From Firmicutes bacterium UBA1739 (GTDB taxonomy: Bacteria > Bacillota > Clostridia > Peptostreptococcales > Anaerovoracaceae), in NCBI GenBank assembly GCA_002315385.1, contig DCHZ01000025.1, forward strand, positions 23,287 to 47,286: a stretch of DNA of 24,000 nt. The letters run 5' to 3'. Position 1 is the first letter of the stretch. Every line of letters begins with the position of its first letter. Below, one piece after another: positions 10,643 through 14,499 of the stretch. Made by a program: the position numbers and the translations under genes. A model generated the notes under the pieces. The model made no database searches. It had not been told where the DNA came from and worked only from the letters and a program-made list of their open reading frames with translations.

Positions 10643-11824
10643 TCAATCAGGGTCAGAACCGGTGAAACCTACAATTTCATTTACTGCTTTTGCGGCTTCA
10701 ACGGCATCTTCTTCGGTGTTAAAGTATCCGAAAGAGAATCTGACACTTCCCTCCGGATAGCTTCCTAAAGCTTTGTGGGCGGAAGGAGCACAGTGAAGAC
10801 CCACTCTGGTTTTAATTCCGTAATCAGATTCCAGGGTAGCCGAAACCGCAGCACAGTCAATCTCCGTAAAGCACAGAGAAACGACACCAAGGCAGGCACA
10901 GCCGTTATCGTGAGCAAGTATTCTCAGTCCCTTAGTTCCTTTTATTTTTGAAATAAACAGCTCCGCAAGGCAGTTTTCTTTTTCAAGTATTGCTGCGATA
11001 CCTTTTTCTTTGATAAATCTGAGACCGGCCCAAAGGCCGAAAATGCCGGGAAGATTAGGAGTGCCGGGCTCAAACCTGTCTGGCAGAAAACCGGGTATTG
11101 TTTCAAGATGTGATATACTGCCGGTTCCCCCGCTGATAAGAGGAGTTATTTCCGGGACAATTCTGTTGGACAGAATAAATCCTCCGATACCCTGAGGCCC
11201 CATAAGTCCCTTATGACCTGTGAAGCAAAGTGCATCAATATTGTCTTTTTCCATATCAATCTCATAGCTTCCACCTGTCTGAGCGGAATCCACTATGAAG
11301 AACAATCCGTGTTTTTTGCAGAATTCTCCGGTTTCGCGAAGGGGAAGAATCATTCCGGATACATTTGATGCATGAGTCATGATTACAGCTTTAGTGTTTT
11401 TTTGAATCAGAGCTTCAAGTGAAGATACGTCAAAGAATAATTCATCGTTTTCGTTGGTGTTAAGTCCGGCCATACTGAGCTTCATACCATGTTCTTCCAG
11501 CTGACGCAGAGGTCTCATTACCGCATTGTGAGGAAGAGGGCATACGATTACGTGATCCGAAGCAGTGAGTAGACCCTTCAGTACGATATTCAGACTGAGA
11601 GTGATTCCGGAAGTGAAAATGACGTTTTTCTCGTCCGAACCGTTGAAAAGCTCTTTGAGAAGAGCTCTGGTTTCAAAAACAATATCCTCGGCTTCGTAGG
11701 CACTCTGATAGCTTCCACGATTTATATTGCTTCCGATGCGGGTAATATATTCTGTCATTTTTTCCGCCACAGAAGGCGGCTTCGGAAAAGACGTTGCCGC
11801 ATTGTCAAGATAAATATCCCTCAT
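10643..11824 (-). CDS. class V aminotransferase, cysteine desulfurase / selenocysteine lyase family (EF2568 type)
   Basis: 393 aa. N-terminus [16 protein letters not shown]-lysine motif [12 protein letters not shown], and catalytic-Cys loop [11 protein letters not shown]. The start overlaps the selD stop (ATGA). Confidence 0.85.
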
Positions 11825-12852
11825 TCGACTTTCACATCCTTTCCTGAGTAATCAGTTATATAGCCAATTATTGCCGCATCAGTGTGGTGACGGAGATCAC
11901 TGAGCAGTTTCAGGGCATCCGGCTCAGAGACAGCTATCAGCAATCCTCCGGAAGTCTGAGGATCATACATAATGTCTAAAAGAGGTAGTGATACTGATGA
12001 ATAGGCCTCAGTTTCGGATTCCGCATAATCTCTGTTACGGTATGCTCCCGCAGGAATCATTCCCATTGAAGCAAATTCCAGAGCATCCCGATGAAAATTC
12101 AGACTTGCTGATGTAATATGAACAGTAACTCCGCTGCCTGCTGCCATTTCACGGCAGTGACCGATTAGCCCGAATCCTGTGATATCAGTGCAGGAATGTA
12201 CCTGGTAATTTATCATGTTATCATGAGACTTTTTATTCAGTTCTGTCATTTGAATGGTAATTCTGTCAATAAGTGATTCGGAGACAAGACCGGCTTTTGC
12301 GGCAGTGGTAATTATGCCTATACCCAAAGGTTTTGTAAGAATCAGCACATCCCCGGGCAGAGCTCCTGAGTTTGTAAGGATTTTTTTAGGATGAACAAAG
12401 CCCGTAACTGAGAGACCGTATTTGGGTTCGGTGTCGTTTATAGTATGTCCGCCGGAGATAATTGCCCCGGCTTCGTAGGTTTTTTCGTAACCACCTCTGA
12501 GTATTTCGTGAACAGTCTCCCGTGTCATTGTTTCGGTAACCGTCATTATATTCAGAGCAAGCTTAGGTTCGCCGCCCATGGCGTATACATCGCTGAGGGC
12601 ATTGGCTGCCGCAATCTGACCGAAAAGGTGAGGATCATCCACAATGGGCGGGAAAAAATCCAGTGTCTGGACCAGTGCCAGTTCATCGTTTACGATATAA
12701 ACAGAAGCATCATCGCTTTTGTCAAAGCCGACGACCAGCTTATCATCCTTTATTACGGGAAGTCCTTCGAGCAGCTGAGCCAGAGTCCCTGCCCCGACCT
12801 TTGCTCCGCATCCTGCACAGGATGAGAGCTTTGTAAGTTTAATATCCTTCAT
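11821..12852 (-). CDS. selD: selenide, water dikinase (selenophosphate synthetase), Cys-type
   Basis: 343 aa. N-terminal [15 protein letters not shown] (Cys three residues before the catalytic Lys, encoded TGC rather than TGA). DDASVY and [30 protein letters not shown] motifs. GAGGA RBS. Confidence 0.92.
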
Positions 12853-12893
12853 AAGTTTGTCCTCGCTATTATTTCAGCTGTTTTTTCGCCAAA

Positions 12894-12953
12894 CCGGAAT
12901 CAGCTGTTAATCACCGGAACCGGCTGTTAATCACCGGAAACGGCTGTTAATCA
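12894..12953. repeat. 3 x 20-nt head-to-tail tandem repeat spanning the DUF3343 stop codon and the spacer to selD
   Basis: CCGGAATCAGCTGTTAATCA (12894-12913), CCGGAACCGGCTGTTAATCA (12914-12933), CCGGAAACGGCTGTTAATCA (12934-12953). A looser fourth match, TCAGCTGTT, lies at 12874-12882. Confidence 0.9.
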
Positions 12954-13207
12954 ACAGAAGAATAGACAGTTTCGTATTCTGTGTTTTTGGCTGAAAAGTC
13001 GGGCTTCAGCATTACTATCTGTTCGACTTCGTCCATGTTCTGCGGAAAGATGAGACTTTCTGCTTCAAAAACAGCACAGGTTCCGCATGATGACGACAGA
13101 AAGCGGGGAACCGGCTTCAGCTGTACTTCGGTCCCCGCTTTTCTCATTTCGCTTTTCAATCTTGATGCACCGAAGTGCGAATAAAATGTAATTATATAAG
13201 TGTTCAT
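12947..13207 (-). CDS. DUF3343-family putative Se/S carrier protein
   Basis: 86 aa. YIITFYSHFGASRLKSEMRKAG...KPVPRFLSSSCGTCAVF matches the DUF3343 pattern (P.PR..S..CG). ATGA overlap with the upstream yedF-like gene. Confidence 0.75.
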   Translation of the reverse strand: MNTYIITFYSHFGASRLKSEMRKAGTEVQLKPVPRFLSSSCGTCAVFEAESLIFPQNMDEVEQIVMLKPDFSAKNTEYETVYSSVD

Positions 13208-13410
13208 TTCTTTCTTTCAAGATATATGGTGTAAGTATCCCCTTTGTTTTCACTTGAAACACTGAAGCCCTGATGATTTGCAAACCTTGAGATGTTTTCA
13301 AAGGATGTACGGTTATCAGTGACAACAGTGTAGGAATCTTCTCCGGATTCCATAGCTTTTTTTACCATAATAACAGGTTCGGGGCATGAAAGTCCACATG
13401 TATCAATCAT
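13204..13410 (-). CDS. yedF: TusA/SirA/YedF-like sulfur/selenium transfer protein
   Basis: 68 aa. DTCGLSCPEPVIMVKKAM is the CPxP active-site motif of the TusA/YedF fold. AGGAGG RBS. Confidence 0.8.
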   Translation of the reverse strand: MIDTCGLSCPEPVIMVKKAMESGEDSYTVVTDNRTSFENISRFANHQGFSVSSENKGDTYTIYLERKK

Positions 13411-13425: not shown

Positions 13426-14499
13426 TTAAGCTTTACTCTTTTTGGTGTTAATTATTGCGATAATTGTAATTACGCAGAGGCCGATTATTACGCCGATTTT
13501 TCCTGCAGATGTAACGCTGTCAGCAGAAGATGCAAGACCGAAGTTGTGGCAGAAAGCCGCACCGACAAGAAGGCCGAGAACGGTAATCGCAGAATCGGAA
13601 TTTCCTTCTCCGGACAGAACCAGCTGTCTCAGAGGGCAGCCGCCCAAAAGAACGCAGCCGTATCCGACTAAAAGCATACCCATGAAATTCCAGAGACCGT
13701 CATTATGAGCAATAGGCTGTCCGGTAAAACCGGGATTAAAGTTACCTAAGCAGAGGTTGATAATAAATGCCGTTGCAAGTAAGACAAGGAAACCGATTAA
13801 AAGTCTTTTTTCTCTGAAAAGTACGAAATCACGTATTCCACCTACCATACAGAGTCTGGAAAGCTGAGCCATTCCGCCGACAGTTAAACCTGCTATGAGA
13901 GACAGTAAAACAGGTGCATGTGATGCACCGGGGCCTTCAGCAGAGAAATATATGAACGCAGGTGCCGCTATAAGTAGAATAAAAAGAGCAATCTGGACAA
14001 CCGGCATAGTTCCGCCTTCTACAGCAGTTTGTGAGTAAGCACGTTTGAGAGAGAATCCTTTTTTAAGAAATATGATTCCTATGAGTATGCCGACAATAAA
14101 GCCTGCAAGACCTACAATCGCATTGAGGTCACCGCCGGCGATTCTCAGAGTCATTCTCAGAGGACAGCCCAGAAACATCAGACAGCCCACCATAACGAAG
14201 AACGCGATAACAAATCTTGTGATGGGAGAGGAACCACCCCGGGGCTTGAATTCTTTTCTGAAAAGTGCAGTTCCGAAAGCACCGAGAACAAGACCGATAA
14301 TTTCCGGTCTTATATATTGAACTTTGGCCGCTGTGTGAAGCCCTAAAGCTCCGGCAGTATCTCTGATAAAGCAGGCTATACAGAACCCCATGTTCTTAGG
14401 ATTTCCGTATTTAACAAGAATCGCACCGAACAGACCTGCAAGGATTCCGCAGACAGCAATAATCAGGTACTCTTTTTTTGATGACTGTAACTCATTCAT
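13426..14499 (-). CDS. yedE: YedE/YeeE-family membrane protein (putative selenium/thiosulfate-type importer)
   Basis: 357 aa, polytopic. Conserved Cys-bearing half-helices GFCIACF, FLGCPLR and LGGCPLRQL are typical of YedE/YeeE. GAGGTG RBS. Confidence 0.85.
   Translation of the reverse strand: MNELQSSKKEYLIIAVCGILAGLFGAILVKYGNPKNMGFCIACFIRDTAGALGLHTAAKVQYIRPEIIGLVLGAFGTALFRKEFKPRGGSSPITRFVIAFFVMVGCLMFLGCPLRMTLRIAGGDLNAIVGLAGFIVGILIGIIFLKKGFSLKRAYSQTAVEGGTMPVVQIALFILLIAAPAFIYFSAEGPGASHAPVLLSLIAGLTVGGMAQLSRLCMVGGIRDFVLFREKRLLIGFLVLLATAFIINLCLGNFNPGFTGQPIAHNDGLWNFMGMLLVGYGCVLLGGCPLRQLVLSGEGNSDSAITVLGLLVGAAFCHNFGLASSADSVTSAGKIGVIIGLCVITIIAIINTKKSKA

What the first reader, a model, noticed from the sequence alone, without database searches (positions are those of the whole stretch)
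12873..12953. Three exact-period 20-nt tandem repeats between the DUF3343 gene and selD
Seen in the sequence: CCGGAAnCnGCTGTTAATCA occurs three times head to tail (12894-12953), with only 2 variable positions. A looser TCAGCTGTT match lies 26 nt further on, at 12874-12882. The promoter-distal unit contains the last two codons and the TAA stop of the DUF3343 gene. The other two units fill the 94-nt spacer before selD. This spacer is by far the largest gap (94 nt) in an operon whose other junctions are 4-nt overlaps or a 15-nt gap. On the mRNA each unit reads UGAUUAACAGCCGnUUCCGG. That places self-complementary CCGG and CAGCUG elements at regular 20-nt spacing, which allows several mutually exclusive hairpins upstream of the selD RBS. 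Inference: possible explanations are a repeated protein or sRNA binding site, an RNA processing or stability element that uncouples selD-csd from yedE-yedF, or a recent slippage duplication of the gene end. None of these is a known feature of selenium operons.
Basis: seen in the sequence. Interest (0 to 1): 0.6.

Follow-up and report, generated by a model that had tools for sequence, protein, structure and literature searches.

The report
Private tandem duplication before selD
Three head-to-tail 20-base repeats really do sit between two selenium-metabolism genes, but they are a one-off insertion found only in this organism and look like an ordinary replication-slippage duplication, not a regulatory device.

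Summary
CCGGAAnCnGCTGTTAATCA occurs three times head to tail at 12894-12953 (TRF score 101; 0 matches in 100 shuffles). It lies in the 94-nt gap between the DUF3343/Se_S_carrier gene and selD, in a minus-strand yedE-yedF-DUF3343-selD-csd operon.

The regulatory readings are not supported:
- The 20-mer occurs nowhere else in the 1.63-Mb genome or in 60 related genomes. It is absent from viral contigs and plasmids, and gives only chance single hits in the large metagenome and genome collections.
- The closest orthologous operons (SelD 77-81% identical) have gaps of only 4-15 nt. The window therefore carries a lineage-specific insertion of about 81 nt.
- An in-frame TAA-TAG lies 13 nt before the selD ATG. 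It looks like the old stop codon and matches the layout in relatives.
- The spacer RNA folds no better than shuffled sequence (z = -1.1). It has no Rfam match and no consensus promoter or terminator.
- Removing units in silico leaves predicted selD RBS accessibility unchanged.
- The genome holds about 20 other small non-coding tandem arrays.
- Across 13 lineages this junction ranges from -8 to 94 nt, and the long spacers are unrelated in sequence.

Best reading: a slippage-type tandem duplication whose main effect is to lengthen the spacer and loosen translational coupling. No read-level, strain-level or RNA data could be obtained. Interest is low.

The parts
12934..12953 (-). Repeat unit 1 (mRNA 5'-most): TGATTAACAGCCGTTTCCGG. 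It holds the last codon (GAT) and the TAA stop of the DUF3343 gene.
12914..12933 (-). Repeat unit 2: TGATTAACAGCCGGTTCCGG. It equals the consensus of the three units.
12894..12913 (-). Repeat unit 3: TGATTAACAGCTGATTCCGG. It differs from unit 2 at two positions.
12872..12893 (-). Non-periodic remainder of the insertion. It holds a partial out-of-phase copy AACAGCTGA (12874-12882), 26 nt from its match in unit 3.
   Evidence: 12 of 2000 shuffles reach the match
12866..12871 (-). TAA-TAG in the DUF3343 reading frame, 13 nt before the selD ATG. Inferred to be the ancestral stop of the DUF3343 gene, with the same layout as in L032 and L033.
   Evidence: inference
12853..12865 (-). 13-nt spacer holding the selD Shine-Dalgarno sequence (GAGGA, 12860-12864).
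   Evidence: sequence reading
12947..13207 (-). DUF3343 / Se_S_carrier gene (86 aa).
   Evidence: (PF11823, E 2.2e-11)
11821..12852 (-). selD (343 aa, Cys form).
   Evidence: (AIRS, AIRS_C)

Best explanation
The repeat is a lineage-specific insertion of about 81 nt (12872-12952). It sits directly after codon 85 of the DUF3343 gene and was built by tandem (slipped-strand) duplication of a 20-nt unit. A decayed out-of-phase partial copy lies beside it.

The insertion carries stop codons in every frame. The gene therefore ends one codon later (VD*). The old stop (TAA-TAG) and the old 13-nt Shine-Dalgarno spacer are left intact in front of selD.

The likely consequence is passive. Ribosomes now terminate 94 nt before the selD start instead of about 13 nt. 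Termination-reinitiation coupling is therefore loosened, and selD depends on fresh initiation at its own GAGGA site.

No dedicated regulatory role is needed to explain the sequence.

Shown: the repeat itself, its uniqueness, its absence from orthologous junctions, and the lack of an unusual fold.

Inferred: the slippage mechanism, the ancestral stop, and the effect on coupling.
For: - The repeat is exact-period with 90-100% identity between units.
- The closest orthologous operons have the same gene order. YedE is 82-84%, SelD 77-81% and DUF3343 69-74% identical. Their gaps are 5, 4, 13 and 15 nt, with no unit present.
- The 20-mer is unique in the genome. It is not found in 60 relatives, viral contigs or plasmids.
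- Single scattered hits in unrelated taxa number 16 in metagenomes and 9 in the genome collection. My estimate is about 17 chance hits for 18 fixed bases in 596 Gb.
- Removing 81 nt gives ...TCT GTT TAA TAG + 13 nt + ATG, the same architecture as L032 (TAG + 13 nt) and L033 (TAG + 15 nt).
- The genome has about 20 other non-coding or gene-boundary tandem arrays of period 10-60. Five of them, counting this one, have at least 3 copies, and some straddle gene ends.
- The spacer fold has z = -1.1. Nothing was found in Rfam, and there is no promoter or terminator consensus in the spacer.
- Predicted unpaired probability of the SD (0.23-0.26) and ATG (0.59-0.61) is the same with 3, 2 or 1 units.
- Junction length is evolutionarily plastic, from -8 to 94 nt over 13 lineages, and the long spacers are unrelated in sequence.
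Against: - The three substitutions among units cluster in a 3-nt patch (positions 12 and 14), while 18 positions are invariant. All three are compatible with a small hairpin GCYG[NUUC]CGGU. That is what a constrained element could look like. With only three changes it is not significant.
- About 5% divergence between units suggests the array has persisted for some time although tandem repeats are unstable.
- No strain-level, read-level or transcript data were available (one search failed), so copy-number polymorphism, the hallmark of slippage, was not observed.
- Similarity of the units to the putative ancestral junction is not significant, so the source of the first unit is unknown.
- One other lineage (L068) has a strong hairpin at the same junction (z -5.2). 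Selection for an intercistronic element at this position is therefore conceivable.
Confidence: 0.72

Rival explanations
1. RNA-level intercistronic element. The units form hairpins (GCYG-NUUC-CGGU in each unit, and a 9-bp hairpin followed by UUU in unit 3). These would act as an exonuclease barrier, a processing site or a weak attenuator, so that yedE-yedF-DUF3343 and selD-csd are expressed at different levels.
For: - Small hairpins of -2.1 to -6.8 kcal/mol are predicted, and the three variable positions do not break the unit hairpin.
- Another lineage (L068) has an 87-nt spacer at the same junction with a highly significant hairpin (z -5.2).
- Outside the close clade, yedE-yedF-DUF3343 and selD are often separate units.
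Against: - The whole spacer folds no better than shuffles (z -1.1, 28 of 200). With flanks, z is -1.7.
- The ensemble is diffuse: the MFE has 2% frequency and 61 structures lie within 2 kcal/mol.
- No terminator-like site was found in the spacer and there is no Rfam match.
- The sequence is not conserved in any relative.
- L092's 82-nt spacer at the same junction is less structured than shuffles (z +1.5).
Confidence: 0.12
2. Three tandem binding sites, one per 20 bp (about two helical turns), for a DNA-binding regulator or an RNA-binding protein that controls selD-csd independently of the yedE promoter.
For: - The exact 20-bp phasing and the invariant 17-nt core TTCCGGTGATTAACAGC resemble arrays of contiguous activator sites or iterons (my own knowledge).
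- A TGnAATAAT extended -10-like motif lies 18-26 nt downstream of the last unit, at 12868-12876 (reading).
- A LysR-type regulator is encoded in the locus.
Against: - No further copy of the motif, even with 3 mismatches, occurs in the window, including the yedE/yqeC control region. None occurs elsewhere in the genome. The two other TGATTAACAGC 11-mers are a coding site and a tRNA-adjacent site.
- The consensus scan found no sigma-70-type promoter in the spacer.
- A transcript started from the -10-like motif would begin inside the selD Shine-Dalgarno sequence.
- Relatives with the same regulator and operon lack the sites entirely.
- The two 10-bp halves of the unit are unlike each other, and the unit is not a dyad.
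Confidence: 0.08
3. SECIS-like SelB-binding element that autoregulates selenium genes, by analogy with the SECIS-like hairpin in the E. coli selAB leader (my own knowledge).
For: Small G/U-containing loops (GUUC, UUUC) on short GC stems lie upstream of a selenium gene.
Against: - The own genome (89.6% complete) has no SelB match over the curated cut-off, only general translation GTPases.
- No tRNA-Sec was found among the 21 tRNAs detected, and no selU.
- SelD here is the Cys form.
- The stems are only 4 bp long.
Confidence: 0.01
4. Assembly artefact: the copy number or the whole insertion is a product of metagenome assembly.
For: The genome is a metagenome-assembled draft (40 contigs, 89.6% complete). 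The only second DNA copy readable (L028) is identical over 6261 nt and therefore not independent.
Against: - Each unit is distinguishable at positions 12 and 14, so the path through the array is unambiguous. At 61 nt the array is shorter than a typical read (inference).
- The flanking genes are intact and in frame.
- The protein is recorded from NCBI, JGI and Logan sources.
Confidence: 0.03

Closest known systems
Short intergenic tandem duplications / VNTR loci generated by slipped-strand mispairing (my own knowledge of the class)
   Same: Head-to-tail units of exact period and high identity between units. Present in one lineage and absent from orthologous sites in relatives. Many comparable small arrays occur in the same genome.
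   Different: Copy-number polymorphism between strains defines a VNTR and could not be examined here. The units have already diverged at 3 of 60 positions.
Mycobacterial interspersed repetitive units (MIRU): tandem repeats in intercistronic gaps of operons (my own knowledge)
   Same: A tandem array sitting between two cistrons of one operon, overlapping the stop codon of the upstream gene.
   Different: MIRUs are 40-100 bp and dispersed at dozens of loci per genome. They often preserve translational coupling through small ORFs. This 20-mer is at a single locus and has stops in all frames.
REP/BIME intercistronic palindromes that stabilise upstream mRNA (my own knowledge)
   Same: Position inside an operon between genes that may need different expression levels. 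Some hairpin potential.
   Different: REP elements are dispersed, strongly palindromic families. Here the repeat is direct and single-locus, and its fold is not better than shuffles.
Contiguous 20-bp activator sites (such as the OmpR F1-F2-F3 array) or plasmid iterons (my own knowledge)
   Same: Three contiguous direct repeats with a 20-bp period.
   Different: No adjacent consensus promoter or replication gene, no other sites in the genome, and absent from relatives with the same regulator.

Membership tests
Slippage-type tandem duplication / VNTR | Head-to-tail copies of exact period with high identity | tested here: met
   Period 20, 3.0 copies, 92% matches, no indels. 0 of 100 shuffles gave a match.
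Slippage-type tandem duplication / VNTR | Absent or single-copy at the orthologous site in relatives | tested here: met
   L029, L030, L032 and L033/L061 have gaps of 5, 4, 13 and 15 nt with no unit.
Slippage-type tandem duplication / VNTR | Copy number varies among strains or reads of one population | not testable with these tools
No conspecific genome was found. L028 is identical to the window.
Slippage-type tandem duplication / VNTR | Microhomology at the array borders that could seed mispairing | tested here: inconclusive
   TTCTGT precedes unit 1, against TTCCGG at each unit end (4 of 6; reading). The flank-to-unit alignment is not better than shuffles.
Dispersed repeat family (REP, MIRU, MITE) | Many copies spread over the genome | tested here: not met
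   The only three copies lie at this locus. None were found in 60 relatives.
Curated structured RNA family (Rfam) | Match to a covariance model | tested here: not met
   No hit overlaps 12853-12960, even at E up to 10.
Structured cis-regulatory RNA in general | Fold more stable than composition predicts, and conserved | tested here: not met
   z = -1.1 for the spacer and -1.7 with flanks. There are no homologues to test covariation.
Intrinsic terminator / attenuator | GC-rich hairpin followed by a U-run | tested here: not met
   No terminator-like site in the spacer. The unit-3 hairpin is followed by only UUU.
Tandem transcription-factor sites upstream of an internal promoter | Adjacent promoter, and further sites in the regulon | tested here: not met
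   No consensus promoter in the spacer. No further motif copies.
SECIS-like SelB target | SelB and tRNA-Sec present in the genome | tested here: not met
   No SelB over the cut-off and no tRNA-Sec. The genome is 89.6% complete.

The most novel reading that the evidence does not exclude
The three phased 20-mers are a newly evolved cis element, either protein-binding sites or phased small hairpins. It would uncouple selD-csd expression from yedE-yedF-DUF3343 in an organism that uses SelD only for the YqeB/YqeC selenium-cofactor route. That would show de novo birth of an intercistronic regulator by tandem duplication.
Probability: 0.08. Interest if true: 0.5.

Novelty: new member of a known kind. 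Interest (0 to 1): 0.15.

Why it matters
It matters little as it stands. It documents that the DUF3343-selD junction, tight in the closest relatives, is evolutionarily plastic, and that a private tandem duplication has pushed selD 94 nt from the upstream stop codon. If the array were shown to change selD output with copy number, it would be a small natural example of expression tuning by repeat expansion inside a selenium operon. It could also serve as a strain-typing marker for this uncultured lineage.

Tried and rejected
- A protein-based scan of JGI metagenomes for close DUF3343 relatives confirmed no locus.
- Exact-pattern scans of metagenome, genome and viral collections gave only chance single hits or nothing. 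A plasmid BLAST gave nothing.
- I tested whether the 3' tail of the spacer, or the upstream coding sequence, is a decayed copy of the unit. It is not significant: 2092 of 5000 and 4008 of 5000 shuffles did as well. Only the 9-nt AACAGCTGA match to unit 3 stands out (12 of 2000).
- Two extra TGATTAACAGC 11-mers on the same contig proved to be unrelated. One is in a coding region and one sits next to a tRNA-like sequence.
- The idea of an internal promoter (TGnAATAAT at 12868-12876) was rejected, because a start there would remove the selD Shine-Dalgarno sequence and the scan found no promoter.
- The SECIS/SelB idea was rejected, because selB, tRNA-Sec and selU were not found.
- Of four contigs that carry the identical DUF3343 protein, only one was shown by the look-up. 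Independent assemblies could therefore not be compared.

Full report
**The observation**

The window's + strand carries CCGGAATCAGCTGTTAATCA, CCGGAACCGGCTGTTAATCA and CCGGAAACGGCTGTTAATCA back to back at 12894-12953. Tandem Repeats Finder calls a period-20, 3.0-copy array with 92% matches, no indels and score 101. The degenerate pattern never occurred in 100 dinucleotide-preserving shuffles.

The array lies on the antisense strand of a minus-strand operon, annotated with Pfam and ORF coordinates:
- YedE-like Sulf_transp, 13426-14499
- TusA/YedF, 13204-13410
- Se_S_carrier (DUF3343), 12947-13207
- SelD, 11821-12852
- Class-V aminotransferase (Csd), 10643-11824

On the mRNA the units read TGATTAACAGCCGTTTCCGG, TGATTAACAGCCGGTTCCGG and TGATTAACAGCTGATTCCGG. 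The 5'-most unit contains the last codon and the TAA stop. The looser TCAGCTGTT at 12874-12882 is real and 26 nt out of phase. Its 9-nt identity with unit 3 was reached by 12 of 2000 shuffles.

**Is it a dispersed or shared element?**

No.
- The 20-mer, with up to 2 mismatches, occurs only at this locus in the 1.63-Mb, 89.6%-complete genome. A short-word BLAST of the unit and of the whole spacer finds nothing else beyond chance 11-15-mers.
- Two other TGATTAACAGC 11-mers on the contig are unrelated: one coding site and one next to a tRNA-like sequence.
- Exact-pattern scans gave 16 single hits in the metagenome collection and 9 in the genome collection, all in unrelated taxa and all single units. 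By my estimate this is the number expected by chance for 18 fixed bases.
- No match was found in 60 related genomes, in viral contigs or in plasmids.

**Orthologous junctions**

Representative genomes of the family mostly lack a close DUF3343 homologue. The large protein collection gave three close relatives at 69-74% identity.

Their contigs carry the same divergent lysR-yqeC / yedE-yedF-DUF3343-selD-csd layout. YedE is 82-84% and SelD 77-81% identical. Their DUF3343-selD gaps are 5, 4, 13 and 15 nt. None contains a unit. The window therefore carries a lineage-specific insertion.

Reading the window's spacer in the DUF3343 frame, a TAA-TAG pair lies at 12871-12866, 13 nt before the selD ATG. 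Removing the 81 nt at 12872-12952 gives ...TCT GTT TAA TAG + 13 nt + ATG. This is the architecture of L032 (GTT TAG + 13 nt) and L033 (ATA TAG + 15 nt). I take this as the ancestral stop. That is an inference: frame agreement alone has a one-in-three chance.

More distant lineages that also join DUF3343 to selD have gaps of -8, 0, 1, 12, 38, 82 and 87 nt. The long spacers are unrelated in sequence. One (L068) holds a perfect hairpin of about 18 bp (z -5.2). Another (L092) is less structured than shuffles (z +1.5). The junction is thus plastic, and the window's spacer length is not unique.

**Does the array look functional?**

- The 108-nt spacer RNA folds at -27.6 kcal/mol against -23.4 ± 3.7 for shuffles (z -1.1; 28 of 200 shuffles do as well). 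The ensemble is diffuse. With flanks, z is -1.7.
- Small hairpins exist: GCYG[NUUC]CGGU in each unit, and a 9-bp hairpin followed by UUU in unit 3. The three substitutions among units happen not to break the unit hairpin. Three changes cannot carry a covariation argument.
- Rfam gave no hit over the spacer, even at E up to 10.
- The consensus scan found no promoter or terminator in the spacer.
- A TGnAATAAT extended -10-like motif at 12868-12876 would start transcription inside the selD Shine-Dalgarno sequence. I therefore reject it as a promoter.
- Removing one or two units in silico leaves the predicted unpaired probability of the SD (0.23-0.26) and ATG (0.59-0.61) unchanged.
- A SelB/SECIS-like reading is excluded in practice. 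There is no SelB over the cut-off, no selU and no tRNA-Sec. SelD here is the Cys form, whereas most SelD genes of the family carry one in-frame TGA.
- The gene families themselves are the known candidate selenium genes of Lin et al. 2015 (PMC5322559). That paper mentions no such repeat.

**Mutational background**

TRF over the whole genome finds 64 rows at score 60 or more. Among periods 10-60, about 20 loci are non-coding or straddle gene boundaries. Five of these, counting this one, have three or more copies, for example 28 x 3.6, 13 x 4.3 at a gene end, and 20 x 3.2. Short tandem duplication is thus a recurrent event in this genome.

**Verdict**

The most economical account is a private tandem duplication inside a lineage-specific insertion at the gene end. 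It passively lengthens the intercistronic distance and loosens translational coupling of selD. I give this a confidence of about 0.7.

The rivals rank as follows:
- RNA stability or processing element, about 0.12
- Phased binding sites, about 0.08
- Assembly artefact, about 0.03
- SECIS-like element, about 0.01

What is missing is population-level and transcript-level evidence. The one other readable copy is identical to the window over 6261 nt and so is not independent.

The earlier scan notes on this window agree on the gene context. I confirmed across the whole genome their statement that selB, selU and tRNA-Sec are missing.

Noticed in passing
L068:1399-1485 (G374:C65): A family member with a Sec-type (TGA) selD has an 87-nt DUF3343-selD spacer. 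It holds a perfect hairpin of about 18 bp (z -5.2), followed by an A/T-rich stretch. It is a candidate intercistronic terminator or stabiliser at the same junction.
   Followed up: partly
window 12866-12871 (- strand): TAA-TAG in the DUF3343 frame, 13 nt before the selD ATG. It looks like the relic of the ancestral stop and matches the layout in L032 and L033.
   Followed up: partly
whole genome G000; window 11821-12852: SelD here is the Cys form, while most SelD genes in the family carry one in-frame TGA. The own genome shows no selB over the cut-off, no selU and no tRNA-Sec (89.6% complete). SelD therefore probably serves the yqeB/yqeC selenium-cofactor route.
   Followed up: partly
L029:3265-3269 vs L030:3265-3268: Two near-identical contigs from different samples differ by one A in the A-run that forms the DUF3343-selD spacer (5 vs 4 nt). 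This is a homopolymer length polymorphism at the coupling junction.
   Followed up: no
window 12868-12876 (- strand): A TGnAATAAT extended -10-like motif lies just upstream of the selD Shine-Dalgarno sequence. A transcript starting there would lack the SD, so it is probably not a promoter.
   Followed up: partly
G000:C29:68010-68065; C20:60088-60189; C12:23399-23460: Other short tandem arrays in the same genome (13 x 4.3 straddling a gene end; 28 x 3.6 non-coding; 25 x 2.5 perfect at a gene start). They show that small tandem duplications are common here.
   Followed up: no
L092:2292-2373: A Lachnospiraceae MAG has an 82-nt DUF3343-selD spacer with no repeat and no notable structure (z +1.5).
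   Followed up: partly
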